A stretch of 64,000 nucleotides of DNA, from assembly GCA_965652295.1 (NCBI GenBank), contig CBFGTS010000001.1:224001-288000 (forward strand). The letters are read 5' to 3'. This stretch comes from an uncultured Haloferula sp. (GTDB taxonomy: Bacteria; Verrucomicrobiota; Verrucomicrobiia; Verrucomicrobiales; Akkermansiaceae). Every line of letters starts with the position of its first letter. Positions within the stretch are counted from its first letter, which is position 1. Of the stretch, positions 20,086-28,755 are shown piece after piece. The position numbers and the translations under genes were made by a program. The notes beneath the pieces were generated by a model. That model was not told the DNA's origin, did not search any database, and saw only the letters and a list, made by a program, of their open reading frames with translations.

Positions 20086-20213
20086 AAGATATGGCGTCGG
20101 CGGTGGCAAGAAAACCCATGGGAATCCTTTCCCGTCGGTAGAACTTAAAATGGCCGTGGTTTTTACCTTGGCATGCCGGGGATCAGATGGTCTGCGTGCA
20201 GGTCCTCCTCCTC

Positions 20214-23200
20214 ATGTCTGGCCTCAATTTGTCGGCTGGTTCAGCCTCTCTTCCTGATTGCCTCCGCGCCTTCGCGCCGGCTCGCATCCGGGTGCTTTTC
20301 GCCATCGCGGGTTTCGTCTCAAGTGCTGCGCTACCCGCGTCGGCAGCCCCCGTGCTGATCCACCGCTACAGCTTCGATACACCCGGTGCGGCGGAGGATA
20401 CCGCCACGGGCGGCACGCGGGGCGGCGCACCGGAGCTGCTTCACGGCACTCTGGTGGGAACTGCGACGGTCAGCGGAGGATCGCTGCGGACAAATGGGGA
20501 GGCGAATGGAAAGGCCTATGTCGCCTTACCGGCCGGGGTCACCGCCACGCTCAACGGCTCGTTCACCATCCAGCAATTTGCCACGCCGGAGTTTTCCGCA
20601 GGCTTTTATCAGACCCTCTCCGCTTTCACCAAGCCGGGCGACGACAATCATGATGGCAGCCGGGAAAACCTGCTCATTTCCCAACCCGTGCGCAATCAGG
20701 GCGGCAGTCCTTCCGCCTTCGGCTATCGGCAGGAAGGAGTGAATGGCGGCAATGAATGGCTGCTCACCGGCAGCCCGGGGGACACGGGCGGCACGATGCA
20801 CACGTTCACGACCACCTTCGATGCGGAGGCAGGCACGGCGCGGTATTACCGGGACGGCGTGCTCGTGGCCACCAGCGCGACCGGCGCGCTCGCGGGCTTT
20901 GATCTCTCGCAGCTCACCCAGATCGGTATCAACGGCCGCGCTCCGTGGAACGATCCGAGCCTCTCGGGCTCCACCCAGGAATTCCGCATCTACCGGGGTC
21001 TGCTCACGCCCCAGCAGGTGGCCGCGACCGTGGCAAACCCGGACCTCACCTCCGCGGAATTCGAGGCTGCCGGCATTGATGTCCCCGGCGGAGCGCCCGC
21101 GCTCGTGGATCGCACCGTCGTACAGTCGAGCCGTTGGCATCCTTCGCAAATCCTGGCCTGGTCTCCCGCGACCGACCCGCTCGCGCCCTACAACCGCAGT
21201 GTTGTCCCGTTGGCGGAACGTTTCACCGCACCGAAGGCTTCGGACAACCCCGCGCTCAACGCGCTCTGGAACGTGAACCCGCACGCGCGCCCGGAAGAGG
21301 CCCGCGTTCAGGCCGTCACGACGTTCAACACCATCCCCGCCGGCATGCCCAACGGCTTCCGCACCACCCGGCTTTATGCGCCGAGCATGTGGCAGTATCT
21401 CGACAGCATGGCCTTCTGGGGCAGCTCGGACCGCGACGACCGGGTCATCATGTGCCCGACCGCGCACACCATCGATGCCGCGCACCGCAACGGCGTCCGC
21501 ATCTACGGCAAGATCTTCTTCCACTGGAATGCCTCGCCGGACGATGTGGCGCTGCGTCGCATCCGCGATCTCATCCAGAAGGACGGCGACACCTTCCCTG
21601 TGGCCGACAAGTTGATCGAAGCGGCGCTCTATTACGGGTTCGATGGCTGGTTCCTCAATCAGGAGAACTATCAAACGAACTCGGCTGACGCGCAGGGAAT
21701 CCGCGACTTCATGGCCTATTTCCGGGCTAGGTCCGAGGACATGGGTGCCTCTCACCTCAAGATGGAGTGGTACGACGCGATGGCGGAAAACGGAAACCGC
21801 TCCTTCCAGAACGCGCTGACGAACAGCAACGACGGCTTCATGAAGTCCGGGACGAATGTCACCGATACGGGCAGCACGCTGGCGGCCCATGAGATGTTCC
21901 TCAACTTCTGGTGGTACTACAACAGCTCCAACCTATCCAATTCCCGCGCGCTCGCCCTTTCCCGCGGCATCGATCCCTATGATCTCTTCGCCGGCATCTG
22001 GACGGAGAACTATCGGAACTATGGCAAAACGCCGGATCCGAACAGCGCGGGGAATCTCGACATCACCTGGAGCCATCTTTTCCCGGAAGGCGCTCCGCAC
22101 AACACCTCCGTCGGTCTCTTCGCCGCGGAAACCCCCTGGTTCAAGGCACCTTTCCCGGCGGGAGGCGTGGCGCAGGATCAAATCTACTGGTCTGGTCCCA
22201 ACAGCGATCCGACCGATACCGTGCCGGCCGCTGGATCGCCCACGCCGAACTGGTACGGCCTGGCCCACTACATTCCGGCGAATTCGGTGATCACCCGGCT
22301 GCCGTTCGTCACGAACTTCAATGTGGGACAGGGATCTTTCTACAAGATCGACGGCACCACGGTCATGACCGGTCCGTGGACCAATCTCGGAGTGCAGGAC
22401 ATCCTCCCGACCTGGCGATGGATCGTCACCAGCACGGGTGCCGAGACGCTGACTCCTTCGCTCGATTTCACGGAATCCTATTACGGCGGCAGCTCGCTCA
22501 AGGTCACGGGTTCGCTGCAAGCGGGCGTCGCTCAGGAGATCAAACTCTATCAGACCCGCCTGCCAATCACCTCCGAAACCTCGCTGAAGCTGATTTACAA
22601 ACCGGGAGCGGTGGACAATTCCCGGATCCAGGTGGGGTTCGCATTCGAGGACGCACCGGGAACGATGGTTTACTCCAATGCGGCACGGGCGTTGACCACC
22701 TCAGGCTGGAGTTCGCTCACGGTTCCGATGAGCGCCTACGCGGGTCGCAGTCTGGCGCTGATCACGTTGCGTTTTTCCAGCCCGACGACTCTCGGCAGCT
22801 ATACGACAGCCATCGGCCGCATCCAGGTTTCCGACGGTCCGATGGTCGCGCCCCAGGCTCCGTCCGCGCTGGTGTTGGAAGGAACGATGCCCAATCCCGA
22901 CGAAGCCTTCTCGACCACCTTGCGGCTGAAGTGGGCCGCCTCGCCATCACCGGTGCTCTACTACAACATCTATCATCGCCGGGACGATGCCGCCGAGTCG
23001 CCGCGGGTGTGGTTGGGCGCAACGGCCAACGATCACTTCGTGGCGCAGGACGTCCGCCGTTTCGGAACGGAAGCTGCGGGTTTCATCGATGTCGAGGCGG
23101 TGGGCCCGGATCATGGGACCTCGGCACCGGCGACCACGCCCGGAGCGACCTTCGAGTTCGAACCCTATCCGAACCTCCATCGGCCCTTGATTCCGTCCTA

Positions 23201-24917
23201 TCCGGTCTCCGCGCCGATCACGGTCATCGGCAGCGGGACGAACCCCGCGAACATGACCCGCGCCTTCGACAACAACACCGCCAATTTCACCGAGCCCGGT
23301 GGAGCGGACAACGCCTGGGTGGGGATCGATCTGGGGGCCGGAAATGCGGCGAAGGTGACCGCCGTGCGTTTCTTTCCACGGGCGAACGAGGCCAACCGGA
23401 TGCTCTACGGAAGGTTCCAGGGATCGAACACCGCGGACTTCAGCTCCGGCGTCGTGGAGTTGGTCAGAGTGGAAACCCGTCCTCTTGGAGGCGTCTACAC
23501 CACGCTCACGGTTTCCGATCCGGGAACTTTCCGCTACCTGCGCTACCTTTCGCCGAACGGCGGCTGGGCGAACGTGGCTGAGATCAAGTTTTACGGAGAT
23601 GGCGATCCGCTTCCCGCGCAGCCTCCGCTCTCGCTCCAAGCCACGGTTTCCGGCTCCACGGCGAACCTCAACTGGCTGCCCGCGCTCTCCGGGATGACCA
23701 ACGGCTACCATGTGCTGCGCTCGACGGTGAACGGGGGTGACTACACGACGGTCGCATCCGGGGTGAACGCGACAAGTTGGCAGGACTCCGGACTGCAACC
23801 CGGGACGATCTACTACTACCGGGTGGTTGCGGAAAACGAGCTTGGTACCAGCGAGGCGTCGAGCCGCCTCGTCGTTTCCCCGCCCGCTTCGCGCAAGCTC
23901 GGCGGTTCGGTGATCGGCACCAACGGCTCCTGGAACAACCTCGGCGACGACAAATTCAAAGTCTTCGACGGAAATCCCGGCACCTTTTTCGACGCGGTGG
24001 AGGGAGATGGAGCCTGGGCCGGTCTGGATCTCGGCAGCCCGAAAAAAATCACTTCGATTCGCTACAGCCCTCGCAATGCCGACAACTGGTTGGCCCGAAT
24101 GGTGGGCGGCGTGTTCCAGGCTGCGGACAATCCGGCGTTTACCAATCCGGTGACGCTCTTCGTGGTGCCCTCGATTCCGGTGATTCACACCTACACCATC
24201 GCGTCCGTGGAAGACGTGCCCAGCTACCGATACGTGCGGTATCTCTCGCCGTCGGGAGCCCATTGCAACATATCGGAGGCGGAATTCTACGGAGTCACGG
24301 TCCCGACGGCACCCTCTGCGGTGGCGATTTCCCCTCAACCCGCCAGTGCCGAGCTGGAATGGATTTCCGTTGCCACGGCGGTTCAGTACCGGGTGAAGCG
24401 CGCGACGACCATCGGCGGTCCCTATCAGCTGGTGGGCGAAACGCTCGGCACCCGCTCTTACGACGATCAGGGACTGGATCCCTACACGACGTACTACTAT
24501 GTGGTGAGTGCGGTCAATGAAGCCGGGGAAAGCCCGCCCTCAAGCGAGGTCGTGAAACAGGATGCCTACGGTGCCTGGCTCATCGCCGCGGGCGGAACCT
24601 TGGAGGGTCCGGGCAGTGGATTCGATGAAAAGCTCGACGGCACGGGACCTGCGAACGGAGCTCGCTACATGATGCCGGATGGCGTGGAAGTCCGTGCCGC
24701 CGCGGCCTCCCGCGAGGTCGGTGGAGTCGTCCGGAATGATCCAAACGTGACCGTTTCGCTGTGGCGGTCCGACGATCTTACTGGGTGGGCGGAGGTGCCT
24801 TTCGTGGATTCCTCCGACCAAAGCAACGTGGACGAAGGCTTCCGCCGGGTGGGGGCGGTGATCGAGGGGCCCTTCGACGGGCAGCCGGTGTTCTACCGCT
24901 TCGAGTTCATCCGTTGA
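20214..24917 (+). CDS. Multidomain endo-beta-N-acetylglucosaminidase GH85 (LamG-like + GH85 + FN3 + F5/8-like repeats)
   Basis: YNRSVVPLA.RF, WQYLD..FW, IDAAHRNGV, YYGFDGWFLNQE (catalytic NxE), WYDAM, QDILPTWRW; FN3 repeats (YYYRVVA.N, YYYVVSAVNEAGES). The start is uncertain (20187-20290). Confidence 0.88.
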   Translation: MSGLNLSAGSASLPDCLRAFAPARIRVLFAIAGFVSSAALPASAAPVLIHRYSFDTPGAAEDTATGGTRGGAPELLHGTLVGTATVSGGSLRTNGEANGKAYVALPAGVTATLNGSFTIQQFATPEFSAGFYQTLSAFTKPGDDNHDGSRENLLISQPVRNQGGSPSAFGYRQEGVNGGNEWLLTGSPGDTGGTMHTFTTTFDAEAGTARYYRDGVLVATSATGALAGFDLSQLTQIGINGRAPWNDPSLSGSTQEFRIYRGLLTPQQVAATVANPDLTSAEFEAAGIDVPGGAPALVDRTVVQSSRWHPSQILAWSPATDPLAPYNRSVVPLAERFTAPKASDNPALNALWNVNPHARPEEARVQAVTTFNTIPAGMPNGFRTTRLYAPSMWQYLDSMAFWGSSDRDDRVIMCPTAHTIDAAHRNGVRIYGKIFFHWNASPDDVALRRIRDLIQKDGDTFPVADKLIEAALYYGFDGWFLNQENYQTNSADAQGIRDFMAYFRARSEDMGASHLKMEWYDAMAENGNRSFQNALTNSNDGFMKSGTNVTDTGSTLAAHEMFLNFWWYYNSSNLSNSRALALSRGIDPYDLFAGIWTENYRNYGKTPDPNSAGNLDITWSHLFPEGAPHNTSVGLFAAETPWFKAPFPAGGVAQDQIYWSGPNSDPTDTVPAAGSPTPNWYGLAHYIPANSVITRLPFVTNFNVGQGSFYKIDGTTVMTGPWTNLGVQDILPTWRWIVTSTGAETLTPSLDFTESYYGGSSLKVTGSLQAGVAQEIKLYQTRLPITSETSLKLIYKPGAVDNSRIQVGFAFEDAPGTMVYSNAARALTTSGWSSLTVPMSAYAGRSLALITLRFSSPTTLGSYTTAIGRIQVSDGPMVAPQAPSALVLEGTMPNPDEAFSTTLRLKWAASPSPVLYYNIYHRRDDAAESPRVWLGATANDHFVAQDVRRFGTEAAGFIDVEAVGPDHGTSAPATTPGATFEFEPYPNLHRPLIPSYPVSAPITVIGSGTNPANMTRAFDNNTANFTEPGGADNAWVGIDLGAGNAAKVTAVRFFPRANEANRMLYGRFQGSNTADFSSGVVELVRVETRPLGGVYTTLTVSDPGTFRYLRYLSPNGGWANVAEIKFYGDGDPLPAQPPLSLQATVSGSTANLNWLPALSGMTNGYHVLRSTVNGGDYTTVASGVNATSWQDSGLQPGTIYYYRVVAENELGTSEASSRLVVSPPASRKLGGSVIGTNGSWNNLGDDKFKVFDGNPGTFFDAVEGDGAWAGLDLGSPKKITSIRYSPRNADNWLARMVGGVFQAADNPAFTNPVTLFVVPSIPVIHTYTIASVEDVPSYRYVRYLSPSGAHCNISEAEFYGVTVPTAPSAVAISPQPASAELEWISVATAVQYRVKRATTIGGPYQLVGETLGTRSYDDQGLDPYTTYYYVVSAVNEAGESPPSSEVVKQDAYGAWLIAAGGTLEGPGSGFDEKLDGTGPANGARYMMPDGVEVRAAAASREVGGVVRNDPNVTVSLWRSDDLTGWAEVPFVDSSDQSNVDEGFRRVGAVIEGPFDGQPVFYRFEFIR

Positions 24918-24980: not shown

Positions 24981-25074
24981 CCTTTTTGTCTTGATGTCCG
25001 GAATGGTCGTGATAGAAGCATCATCCGTGGACCGTGAATCGCGGCCCCCATCCCAGCAACAGCCTGACATCATC

Positions 25075-25593
25075 ATGAAAGCCGATAGCGCCACCCTGCC
25101 CGAAACCGATGCCCGCGCCGATGCTCCACACGAGGGGTCCCGCGATGCAGCCAATGCAGCCTATCTGAACCGCCTGCCGCAGCATGCGATTTACAAGCCG
25201 AACTCGCGTGGGAGTGGCGGCGTCGTCCGCTTCGAGCTGAACCTTTTCAAGAATTCCGTTTTCGTCGATGCGGCGCCGCAGGTCGGCGAGCGCCAGTTCG
25301 ATTGGGACGCGAAGCTGACGATGAAATGGGGCATTCCCGATCTCGGAGCCGCGCTTGCCGTGCTGCAAGGTCGTCAGCCGGCAGCGAACCTCTTCCACCG
25401 TTCCGAGCACTCGAACAGCGCCTGCGAACTCGTCGCCCGGGCCGATGCCGAGCGCGCGCCGTATCTGCTGAGCCTGTCGCGGCAGGAGGAGGACAAGTCG
25501 GTGAAGAAGGTGACGATCCCCTTGACTCACGCCGAGGCCGCCGTGCTGGAAACCGTGCTCCACCGCGCCGTGGAACGGCTGGTGGGGTGGTGA
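25075..25593 (+). CDS. Whirly-like putative ssDNA-binding protein
   Basis: AIYK ... VFVDAAPQVGERQFDWDAK ... LFH ... LSLS ... IPLTHAEAAVL ... RLVGW matches the recalled plant Whirly order SIYK ... FAPAAGVRQYDWSRK ... FFH ... FNLS ... IPVTKAEFAVL ... YLLGW. Confidence 0.7.
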   Translation: MKADSATLPETDARADAPHEGSRDAANAAYLNRLPQHAIYKPNSRGSGGVVRFELNLFKNSVFVDAAPQVGERQFDWDAKLTMKWGIPDLGAALAVLQGRQPAANLFHRSEHSNSACELVARADAERAPYLLSLSRQEEDKSVKKVTIPLTHAEAAVLETVLHRAVERLVGW

Positions 25594-25854: not shown

Positions 25855-28578
25855 TCAGTTCGCGACGATGTTCACCAGGCGTCCGGGGACGACGATGATC
25901 TTGCGGATGGTCTTGCCGGCGAGTTGCTCCTGGACCTTGTCGGTTGCCTGGGCGGCGGCTTCGATGTCTTCCTTCGGTGCGTCTTTTGGGACGGTGATCT
26001 TGTCGCGGAGCTTGCCGTTGATTTGGACGACGATCTCGATCTCCGACTCGATGAGCGCGGCTTCGTCGTGCTGCGGCCAGGGTTGCTTGGCGAGCTGGCC
26101 GGAGTTGCCGATGAGGCGGTGGATTTCCTCACTCAGGTGAGGAGCGAAGGGGTTCAGGACACTGAGGAGCAGGGTGAACTCTTTCAGCGGGACGACCTCG
26201 GCGGCGGTGAAGGCGTTGGTGCAGACCATCATCTGCGAGATGGCGGTGTTGAAGGACATGCGGGCGATGTCGTCGGTGACCTTCTTGACGGTCTCGTGGA
26301 CGACCTTGAGCAGGGCCTTGTCGGTGCAGGGGACGTCCTGGAGTTTTTTGGAAACGGTCCACTCGCCGGCCTGGTCCTGTTCCATGGCCACGCGCCAGAC
26401 GCGGGCGAGGAAGCGGGAAACGCCTTCGACGCCTTTCATCTGCCACGGCTTCACTTCGGTGAGCGGGCCCATGAACATTTCGTAGAGGCGCAGGGCATCG
26501 GCCCCGTACTCGCGGACGACTTCGTCGGGGTTGACGACGTTGCCGCGGGACTTGGACATTTTCTGCCCGTCCTCGCCGAGGATGAGGCCCTGGTTGACGA
26601 GCTTCTGGAAGGGCTCGTTGGTGGAAAGGTGGCCGAGGTCGTGGAGGACCTTGTGCCAGAAGCGGGCGTAGAGGAGGTGGAGGACGGCGTGCTCGGTGCC
26701 GCCGACGTAGAGATCGACCATGCCGGTCGCGCTGCGCGCGGAGTGATCAGTGCCGAGTGCCGAGTGATCAGTGGAACTCTTGCCGGCGACGCCGGACCAG
26801 TATTGTTCCGCTTCGCGGGAGATGAAGCGGTCGTTGTTACGGGGATCGCAGTAGCGGAGGTAGTACCAGCAGGAGCCGGCCCACTGGGGCATGGTGTTGG
26901 TTTCGCGCTCGAACTCGTCGCTGTAGGCGATCCAGTCGGTGGCCTTGACCAGCGGCCCGCGGGGGTCGCCGGTGGGCTTGAAGTCCTCCATTTCGGGCTG
27001 GAGCAGGGGCAACTCGCTCTCAGGGAGAGGCTCGTGATCGCCGGTTTCCTTGTTCCAGAGGAGCGGGAAAGGCTCGCCCCAATAGCGCTGGCGGCTGAAC
27101 AGCCAGTCGCGGAGCTTGTAGTTGATGCGGCGGACGCCTTTGCCCTCGGACTCGAGTTCAGCAATAATTCTCTGTTGAGCAATTGAAACGGGGAGTTCCG
27201 AATAGTTCCCAGAGTTTTTCAGGATTCCAGCAAGACTCGTAAACGGTTTTTCAATCGACCAAATCTCTACAATTTTGCCGTTTTCGTCCACTCGATGAGC
27301 TTCGTGTGGCTTCGATAGGCCCAAGTCCTTTCCAGTTGGGAAAACCGGATCTACGAAGATCCAATCTGAGTTGGGTTCAACAACCTCGCGTATCTCCAAT
27401 CCAAAATTCGTGGCAAATTCGCGATCTCTTATGTCGTGGGCGGGGACGGCCATGATGGCTCCGGTGCCGTAGCCCATCATGACGTAGTCGGCGATCCAGA
27501 TGGGGATGCGCTGGTCGTTGACGGGATTGATGGCATACGCGCCGGTGAAGACGCCGGACTTGTCCTTGTTGAGGTCGCCGCGTTCGAGGTCGGACTTGCT
27601 GGCGCAGGTCCGGACGTAGTTCTCGACCGCTTCCTTTTGTTCCGCGGTGGTGATTTCCGCGACGAGCGGGTGCTCGGGGGCGAGGACCATGTAGGTGGCA
27701 CCGAAAAGGGTATCGGGGCGGGTGGTGAAGACGGTGATCTGGGCTTGGCGGATGGAATCCGCCGCCACGTTGAAGTGCACTTCCGCGCCCTCGCTGCGGC
27801 CGATCCAGTTCTTTTGCAGGAGCTTGATGCCTTCGGGCCAGTCGAGCGGGTCGAGGTCGTCGATGAGGCGCTGGGCGTACTTGGTGATGCGGAGCATCCA
27901 CTGGCGCAGCGGCCGGCGCTCGACGGTGTGGCCCTTGGATTTCCATTCCTCGACTTCCTCGTTGGCGAGGACGGTGCCGAGATCGGGCGACCAGTTGACG
28001 GGGGCCTCGTGGATGTAGGCGAGGCGAACGGCGTCGATCTGCTCGCGGGTCCAGCCTTTCTTCTCCAGCTCGGAAACGGGAGCTGCCTTGCCGGTTTCTT
28101 CGTCGAAGTAGGACTTGTAGAGCTGGAGGAAGATCCACTGGGTCCAGCGGACGTATTCGGGATCGGTGGTGGCGATCTCGCGATCCCAGTCGTAGCCGAA
28201 GCCGAGGGACTTCAGCTGGCGGCGGAAGTTCTCGATGTTGGCCTCGGTGGTGAGGCGCGGGTGTTGGCCGGTTTTGATGGCGTACTGCTCGGCAGGCAGG
28301 CCGAAGGAGTCCCAACCCATCGGGTGGAGGACGTTGAAGCCCTGGCGCAGCTTGGTGCGGCCGATGATGTCGGTGGCGGTGTAGCCCTCGGGATGGCCGA
28401 CGTGGAGGCCGCTGCCGGAGGGATAGGGAAACATGTCGAGGACGAAGAACTTCGGTTTCGAGGGGTCGAAATCCGGATCGCCGGGGTTCGGGGTGCGGAA
28501 GGTTTTTTCCGCGTCCCAGAGCTGCTGCCAGCGCGGCTCGAAGTCATCGAAAGGGAAGGGCTTGCGGCGGTCGGACAT
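25855..28578 (-). CDS. leuS: Leucine--tRNA ligase
   Basis: [14 protein letters not shown] (HIGH), FTTRPDT and [14 protein letters not shown] (CP1 editing domain), SRQRYWG, KMSKS. Confidence 0.98.
26741..26775. repeat. Five tandem heptamers (SAGTGNN) inside leuS
   Basis: GAGTGAT CAGTGCC GAGTGCC GAGTGAT CAGTGGA, translating in leuS as [12 protein letters not shown]. Confidence 0.75.
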
Positions 28579-28755
28579 GGTCGGAAAAAGTTCGGAGTTT
28601 CCCTTGAGGGGGCGCGGAAATTGGCCAAAGGGGCCGGATTTGAAAAGGAAAACTCCCGCTGCGCCGCAGGGTGGCGTCGGGAGGAGCGCGCGGTTTTTCC
28701 GGTTGCGGCATCGGGAGGCCCCTCTTTCTTTGGGATGGCTCCCGCGCTGCCAATC

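What the first reader, a model, noticed from the sequence alone, without database searches (positions are those of the whole stretch)
27161..27430. Sharply bounded low-GC, in-frame patch inside leuS (CP1 editing-domain exit)
Seen: a hand count gives about 122/270 G+C (~45%) against ~65% flanks. Codons switch abruptly from GC3-rich (GCC GTC CCC GCC CAC GAC) to ATA AGA GAT ... GTT TCA ATT GCT CAA CAG AGA ATT ATT GCT, then back, with no stop or frameshift. The usual PAHD(E/Q)RD reads PAHDIRD, and a roughly 35-aa novel loop ([39 protein letters not shown]) precedes the NSG motif. Inference: this is either micro-homologous replacement from an AT-rich donor or locally targeted hypermutation of an essential gene. 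Either could reflect selection by LeuRS editing-site inhibitors or phage factors. No RT or template repeat is visible in the window.
Basis: partly seen in the sequence, partly recalled or inferred. Interest (0 to 1): 0.7.

Follow-up and report, generated by a model that had tools for sequence, protein, structure and literature searches.

The report
Swappable foreign cassette inside leuS
About 276 bases in the middle of the essential leucyl-tRNA synthetase gene were replaced by the matching piece of a very distant version of the same gene, and related bacteria keep swapping this same slot for other foreign pieces or for transposase domains.

Summary
The patch is real: codons 383-474 of leuS (27432-27157) have GC3 0.42 against 0.88, the strongest internal trough in the genome, and contigs of two samples cross both edges. 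It is neither a novel loop nor local hypermutation. Four LeuRS proteins whose flanks group with another order carry the same segment without gaps (41-49% identical), while our flanks nest in the host genus. It is therefore an imported leuS segment, bracketed by the gene's two most conserved DNA windows. The editing-site RD pair is intact; no template repeat, DGR-type RT or self-targeting spacer was found. The wider result is that this PAHD-to-KLRDW slot is a turnover hotspot. Of 33 genus genomes, 19 have a short segment, 9 an in-frame RAYT transposase domain and 5 a long loop. Of 26 significant GC3 troughs in 78 leuS genes, 19 fall in the slot. A 96%-identical relative holds yet another segment. 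No low-GC whole-gene donor was found, and the patches have the unbiased composition of accessory DNA. What drives the turnover is untested. The scan earlier noted similar patches in hisS, ileS and glyS, and in-frame RAYTs in leuS, on other DNA.

The parts
25855..28578 (-). leuS, 907 aa, intact single ORF; the only full-length match in the genome
   Evidence: PF13603, PF00133, PF08264
27157..27432 (-). Imported tract, codons 383-474, GC3 0.42, four-fold sites near 25% each
   Evidence: gapless 41-49% identity to P0002, P0006, P0007, P0056
27247..27372 (-). Variable loop inside the tract (about aa 403-444), carrying the 36 extra residues; predicted strand, short helix and beta-hairpin
   Evidence: pLDDT 74-89 over these blocks; 24-33% identical to the four carriers
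27433..27498 (-). 5' anchor (aa 361-382, ending in PAHD), host-type codons; holds the best-conserved 45-nt window of the gene across orders; the tract starts at the next codon
   Evidence: mean identity 0.87 to 31 genes of family f12, rank 1 of 179 windows; community contigs pile up here
27124..27156 (-). Host-type stretch aa 475-485 between tract and 3' anchor; same protein sequence as G021
27079..27123 (-). 3' anchor (aa 486-500), second best-conserved 45-nt window across orders
   Evidence: 0.86, rank 2 of 179
27424..27429 (-). R384-D385, aligned to R346-D347 of the Thermus enzyme; the editing Asp is kept
   Evidence: alignment; catalytic role of D347 recalled, E. coli D345A described as editing-defective in PMC3747510 (passage)
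26731..26772 (.). Separate small insert at a second tolerant site of leuS (about aa 603-617), two 21-nt direct repeats

Best explanation
The tract is a piece of a distantly related leuS allele that replaced the host's own PAHD-to-KLRDW segment by recombination, keeping frame and function. Shown: foreign ancestry, sharp edges, intact frame, conserved editing residues, and that this segment differs between very close relatives across the phylum. Inferred: incoming DNA paired at the highly conserved [18 protein letters not shown] anchor; the 3' end was resolved at or near the NYKLRDW-coding anchor, with the last 11 codons either never replaced or converted back; the swap is tolerated because the slot is a surface excursion at the end of the CP1 domain. 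The slot behaves as an exchangeable cassette: two conserved anchors about 200-300 nt apart around a tolerant loop. It accepts short standard segments, foreign loop-bearing segments and in-frame RAYT units. The low GC3 reflects recent arrival from a pool with unbiased codon use; the immediate donor is unsampled.
For: P0002 aligns without a gap over the whole segment at 49% while its upstream flank is only 63% identical; genus genes are 77-87% identical upstream but lack the loop. Three more carriers align gaplessly. Flank tree: ours lies in a 33-row genus clade (support 99), the four carriers with family f12 of another order. Patch tree on 42 non-loop columns: nearest rows P0002 and P0006; holding ours with 14 genus rows is rejected, p-AU 0.024. 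The two best cross-order windows of 179 bracket the tract. Contigs in runs X1 and X2 bridge both edges with 1 and 0 differences; a contig in X3, 96% identical on both sides, has 222 other letters in place of 288. Genus tally 19 short, 9 RAYT, 5 long. 19 of 26 troughs lie in the slot; within the genus 11 of 15.
Against: No donor genome was found: 0 of 400 other phylum genomes, 0 of 401 of the other order and 0 of 401 of family f12 carry this loop; the few weak hits carry other loops. The best homologue is only 49% identical and no DNA of the four carriers was available, so their GC3 is unknown. The patch tree rests on 42 columns, ours is a long branch, and its grouping with P0002/P0006 has weak support (86/60). 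The 3' edge lies about 11 codons short of the conserved anchor. Perfect runs shared with f12 genes are mostly 11-20 nt at the 5' anchor, short for RecA pairing (recalled threshold about 20-30 nt). Six of the 78 genes were found with the patch profile, which inflates the 19 of 26.
Confidence: 0.72

Rival explanations
1. Circulating conflict cassette: the segment alleles move as segment-only units among high-GC hosts and never belong to a low-GC whole gene. They are kept diverse by an antagonist (phage protein or toxin) that binds this LeuRS surface, as with Rhs tips. This extends the best explanation with a selective driver.
For: No whole-gene low-GC donor for our loop or for the L133 loop family in the genomes searched. 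Twelve patches from several families share a near-uniform four-fold composition (A .22, C .29, G .23, T .26, n = 483), like the 31 low-GC ORFs of this genome. Shared loops diverge faster than flanks: P0002/P0006 73% against 93%; L044/L053 58% against 81-85%. One 100-aa segment family sits in three genera on two separate branches.
Against: No antagonist identified. Relaxed constraint on a surface loop also gives fast divergence. Synonymous sites are near saturation, so dN/dS could not be estimated. No carrier found on viral contigs, and phage and plasmid records gave only ordinary leuS matches of about 40% or less over the full query. 19 of 33 genus genomes keep the short segment.
Confidence: 0.2
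2. RAYT-driven conversion: the resident REP/RAYT unit in this slot nicks the gene; repair from whatever leuS DNA is at hand replaces it, curing the parasite and leaving a foreign tract.
For: 9 of 33 genus genomes carry a PF01797 domain in this slot; two of our three closest leuS relatives (G021, G008) are RAYT carriers; the genome has 12 PF01797 matches, some in frame in housekeeping genes.
Against: No REP arm or hairpin in the tract (z = -0.24; no notable repeats). None of the 34 family-f12 segments read here holds a RAYT, yet several hold low-GC tracts. The ancestral state of our branch is unresolved.
Confidence: 0.15
3. Locally targeted hypermutation (DGR-like or error-prone repair) of the host segment or of an old import.
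For: Four-fold sites are close to random; our tract is the most diverged of the five carriers.
Against: Gapless homology to distant proteins; no template copy (best self-match 23 nt, E 0.077); no DGR-like RT or TR/VR pair seen; the same patch in two samples; accessory genes show the same composition without any such mechanism.
Confidence: 0.06
4. Chimeric assembly.
For: The genome may be assembled from a soil-type metagenome, and conserved anchors attract reads from many organisms.
Against: Single contigs in two samples bridge both junctions with over 70 nt on each side; the frame is kept; other genomes show the same pattern at the same site. X1 may be the source sample and X2 is from the same study.
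Confidence: 0.03

Closest known systems
Mosaic core genes by homologous recombination with distant relatives ('novel allelic replacement', PMC9426536, two passages read; penA/pbp mosaics recalled)
   Same: An in-frame part of a core gene has foreign ancestry and strongly diverged synonymous sites.
   Different: Sub-genic (276 nt); the best known homologue is only 49% identical in protein and belongs to another order; it brings a 36-aa insertion; the same slot is replaced recurrently across the phylum; no selective agent is known.
Homology-facilitated illegitimate recombination (recalled; search listing only)
   Same: One edge sits exactly at a long conserved anchor, the other short of the second anchor.
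   Different: The donor DNA is unknown, so microhomology at the 3' joint cannot be tested.
REPs and REPtrons inside genes (PMC3733652 and PMC3184786, passages read)
   Same: The same leuS slot holds RAYT units in 9 of 33 genus genomes; REPs inside tRNA synthetase genes are mentioned in PMC3733652.
   Different: Our tract has no REP, hairpin or transposase; it replaces conserved leuS sequence instead of only inserting.
Polymorphic cassettes such as Rhs tips (recalled)
   Same: A variable, GC-poorer module exchanged beside a conserved core; Rhs-like tips top the same GC3 scan in this genome.
   Different: Internal to an essential housekeeping enzyme, homologous to the segment it replaces, and with no toxin or immunity partner.
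Diversity-generating retroelement target
   Same: A short, strongly diverged window in one gene.
   Different: No template repeat, no DGR-type RT, and the tract is A/T-richer rather than A-depleted.

Membership tests
Mosaic gene by interspecies recombination | Segment ancestry differs from flank ancestry | tested here: met
   (p-AU 0.024, 42 columns)
Mosaic gene by interspecies recombination | Sharp breakpoints next to conserved sequence, frame kept | tested here: met
   the 3' edge is about 11 codons before the anchor
Mosaic gene by interspecies recombination | Donor lineage identified with near-identical DNA | tested here: not met
   best homologue 49% in protein; none in the genomes, viral contigs, phages or plasmids searched
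Diversity-generating retroelement target | Template repeat differing at adenines | tested here: not met
   assembly 98% complete in 35 contigs
Diversity-generating retroelement target | DGR-type reverse transcriptase | tested here: not met
   two PF00078 matches, both group II intron-like by my reading, no TR/VR pair near the C3 one
Diversity-generating retroelement target | Read-level hypervariability | tested here: inconclusive
   only contigs were available, which drop rare variants; two samples agree
In-frame REP/RAYT insertion | Y1 HUH transposase domain or REP hairpin arms | tested here: not met
   no PF01797 hit, no hairpin; met in nine relatives
Editing-site inhibitor resistance allele | Change at editing-pocket residues | tested here: inconclusive
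   TTRPDT and RD kept; only the residue after PAHD differs, and it varies in 11 of 102 relatives; no assay
CRISPR self-target escape | Resident spacer matching the replaced allele | tested here: not met
   13 spacers against 102 leuS genes: best match 18 nt, outside the slot
Polymorphic conflict cassette | Diversifying selection against a known antagonist | not testable with these tools
   synonymous sites near saturation; no antagonist known

The most novel reading that the evidence does not exclude
The CP1-exit segment of LeuRS is a polymorphic cassette that circulates between orders as a segment-only allele pool, using the two conserved anchors as universal recombination sites. It is kept diverse by a phage or toxin protein that binds this surface, or by RAYT nicking. 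Essential aminoacyl-tRNA synthetases would then carry built-in exchangeable modules comparable to Rhs tips, which would also account for the similar patches noted by the scan in ileS, hisS and glyS.
Probability: 0.22. Interest if true: 0.78.

Novelty: new variant of a known kind. Interest (0 to 1): 0.46.

Why it matters
It shows sub-genic exchange in an essential translation enzyme across a far larger distance (order level, under 50% protein identity) than the classic mosaic genes, and it defines a slot, with its anchors, where this recurs. The slot is shared with in-frame transposase domains, which links two phenomena. It warns against using whole leuS as a phylogenetic marker in this phylum. 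It gives a concrete, testable place to look for phage or toxin pressure on LeuRS. As a single event it is ordinary mosaicism.

Tried and rejected
SnoaL-fragment origin of the loop: a look-alike word pair came up and a weak Pfam hit (E 0.2), but none of the five carriers matches SnoaL at E up to 1 and the words are not conserved among them; rejected as chance. Ral hit (E 0.007-0.03) in our copy only; rejected. The first protein search with the patch as a region found nothing. The metagenome scan returned ten loci matching only the first 23 residues. Viral contigs gave nothing in two scans. The Atlas returned only LeuRS editing-domain clusters. The idea that all loops form one family: a profile of our loop gave only weak scores (L053 7.0 bits, L048 5.2, L047 4.0, each above 200 of 200 shuffles; most others at chance; 37 of 38 segments scored); not claimed. 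The full-length fold from five rows failed (pLDDT 44); the 256-aa fold from 54 rows worked and matched only LeuRS in the rows listed. The first trough scan had a faulty trim and was replaced. The IQ-TREE flank tree did not finish, so FastTree was used. dN/dS inside against outside was not computed, because third positions are near saturation. Lack of cover of the patch in runs X3 and X5 is not used as evidence apart from the bridging X3 contig. Ten literature searches found no description of a replacement hotspot at this leuS site; the library lacks most subscription papers and no supplements were read, though the ORF list in the supplement of PMC3733652 may bear on REPs in leuS.

Full report
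1. Observation. leuS runs from 28578 to 25855 on the minus strand and encodes 907 aa. The best two-changepoint fit gives codons 383-474 (27432-27157), GC3 0.42 against 0.88 outside; positions 1 and 2 change little (0.54/0.37 against 0.63/0.41), so the signal is mainly synonymous. The likelihood gain is 46.9, against a maximum of 10.9 in 60 simulated genes. Of 1858 long ORFs with GC3 above 0.72 it ranks fifth; of the 1148 with both flanks at 0.78 or more it ranks first. The host appears to be a Verrucomicrobiota, Luteolibacter-like bacterium; this name comes from earlier scan notes and my recall, not from a test here.

2. Not an assembly join. Four of 20 listed runs were laid. A 1589-nt contig in X1 (27086-28670, one difference) and a 610-nt contig in X2 (27082-27691, no difference) cross both edges. 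X1 may be the source sample and X2 is from the same study, so this is limited independence, and contigs hide rare variants. In X3, from another study, one contig matches 26872-27144 and 27433-27733 at about 96% but holds 222 other letters where we have 288, an 82-aa segment. The slot thus differs between alleles only 4% apart.

3. Ancestry. A search of 1.84 billion representatives with the 92-aa tract gave four hits; one is a LeuRS fragment (P0002, E 1e-15) and three are unrelated repeat-rich proteins. P0002 aligns with no gap across the segment. Profile searches added P0006, P0007 and P0056; all other hits dropped to E 7e-7 or worse. The four are 41-49% identical to us in the tract and 24-33% in the loop. 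Over the 160 residues upstream they are 63-68% identical to us, while genus genes are 77-87%. In the flank tree (102 rows, FastTree) our gene lies in a genus clade of 33 rows (support 99), nearest G021, G032 and G008; the four carriers fall with family f12 of another order (Opitutaceae-like by recall) and do not form one supported clade. In a tree of 42 non-loop columns of the segment (33 rows chosen by me) our nearest rows are P0002 and P0006, and a clade with 14 genus rows is rejected at p-AU 0.024; the columns are few and our branch is long. All five carriers have a residue other than E or Q after PAHD (I, A, A, S, D), which fits a unit starting at that codon, but 11 of 102 segments do so in general, and RD is invariant in all 102.

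4. Edges. Against 31 f12 genes the two best-conserved 45-nt windows of 179 are aa 361-375 and 486-500, on either side of the tract. The 5' edge falls right after the PAHD codons. The 3' edge falls at about codon 474/475; aa 475-486 are host-type and equal to G021 in protein. The tract has no hairpin (z -0.24) and no notable repeats.

5. The slot is a hotspot. The genus holds 35 genomes including ours, 33 with a readable segment: 19 short (68-73 aa), 9 with an in-frame domain over the PF01797 cut-off (9 of 9 scanned), and 5 with long non-transposase loops of 91-119 aa. Of 102 segments collected, 24 were dropped (flank GC3 under 0.75 or under 500 codons). Among the other 78 genes, 26 have a trough with gain of 10 or more and 19 of these lie at least 70% inside the segment; 23 of 28 long-segment genes have a trough against 3 of 50 short ones. 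Six rows were found with the patch profile and others by full-length match to carriers, so the fair figure is the genus: 11 of 15 troughs, 6 RAYT and 5 not. The troughs extend into normally conserved residues on both sides of the loops, so these are replacements, not only insertions. L084 starts at the same PAHD codon as ours. Sister genes differ in segment (L088/L133, L135/L136), and one 100-aa family occurs in three genera. A metagenome contig carries a NUDIX domain in the slot.

6. Donor. Not found. Profiles of the tract hit none of 400 other phylum genomes, 401 genomes of the other order or 401 of family f12 with this loop; the weak hits carry other loops. The L133 family gave three weak hits in 401 phylum genomes. 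The GTDB-wide pattern scan gave two non-LeuRS chance hits. Viral contigs gave none; phage and plasmid records gave ordinary leuS. Four-fold sites of 12 patches are near uniform (A .22, C .29, G .23, T .26) against A .03, C .56, G .37, T .05 in their flanks; the 31 ORFs of this genome under 53% GC show the same (median GC4 0.52; selected on GC). The tract therefore looks like accessory-pool DNA, not like DNA of an AT-rich organism. Only low-GC imports are visible in a high-GC host, which biases this picture.

7. Function. The 256-aa model (54 rows, pLDDT 83.6) keeps the CP1 fold; the loop is predicted as a strand, a short helix and a hairpin at pLDDT 74-89. It lies where the Thermus enzyme has about 15 residues, between positions 364 and 380. 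D385 aligns with Thermus D347, whose catalytic role I recall; E. coli D345A is described as editing-defective in PMC3747510 (passages). Nothing points to loss of editing or to inhibitor resistance.

8. Mechanisms excluded or open. No second copy of the tract in the genome. Two RT genes, both group II intron-like by my reading. One CRISPR-like array; its 13 spacers do not match the slot in 102 leuS genes. Hypermutation of the host segment is therefore unlikely. Best reading: recombinational replacement between conserved anchors (0.72). Open drivers: neutral tolerance, RAYT-stimulated conversion (two of our three nearest relatives carry a RAYT here, but no RAYT was seen in the f12 segments read), or conflict-driven diversification.

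9. Known context. Allelic replacement from distant relatives is described (PMC9426536, two passages). REPs inside genes, including tRNA synthetases, are described (PMC3733652, 12 of 21 passages; PMC3184786, four passages). Ten searches found no account of this leuS slot as a replacement hotspot (listings and abstract starts only). Earlier scan notes, unchecked AI notes, report low-GC patches in hisS, ileS and glyS and in-frame RAYTs in leuS, ispG and alaS.

10. Verdict. Real; an imported leuS segment in a recurrently swapped slot; a new variant of a known kind. Interest 0.46. The circulating conflict-cassette reading has probability about 0.22 and would deserve about 0.78.

Noticed in passing
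window 26731-26772: Second tolerant site in leuS with two 21-nt direct repeats translated in frame; relatives show similar short low-GC inserts there (L030, L006).
   Followed up: partly
G000 C3:252010-252861; C17:91551-91910; C17 near 82645-82812: RAYT-like domains in frame inside proteins that read as methionine synthase, alanyl-tRNA synthetase and IspG (names from my reading of the sequences). The alaS and ispG cases are already in the scan notes.
   Followed up: partly
G000 C7:142077-141958: A 40-codon low-GC3 insert with mirror-like FSVFS...LKTENF words inside a UvrA-like ORF.
   Followed up: no
L084:2818-3093 (G867): Independent low-GC3 replacement (0.53 against 0.85) starting at the same PAHD codon, 86 aa.
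   Followed up: partly
L133, L134, L135 (G901, G795, G941): One 100-aa segment family with low GC3 in three genera of family f12, on two separate branches.
   Followed up: partly
L044 and L053 (G354, G640): Same genus, same 98-aa length and trough edges, but only 58% identical in the segment against 81-85% in the flanks.
   Followed up: partly
L042:3950-4700: NUDIX domain (PF00293) inserted in the same leuS slot, GC3 0.40 against about 0.6.
   Followed up: partly
L114 (G039), about 130 to 58 codons before PAHD: A strong GC3 trough (gain 19) at a different site of leuS, before the CP1 core.
   Followed up: no
window 24991-25593: ORF with a Whirly-domain hit (PF08536, E 2.8e-7) just downstream of leuS on the other strand.
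   Followed up: no
window 20187-24917: Large GH85 glycoside hydrolase with laminin G, fn3 and F5/8 domains.
   Followed up: no
G000 C8:204779-205634: CRISPR-like array of 13 repeats with 34-38 nt spacers.
   Followed up: partly
G000 C35:795-1427 and C3:191336-192019: Two reverse transcriptase genes that look like group II intron RTs.
   Followed up: partly
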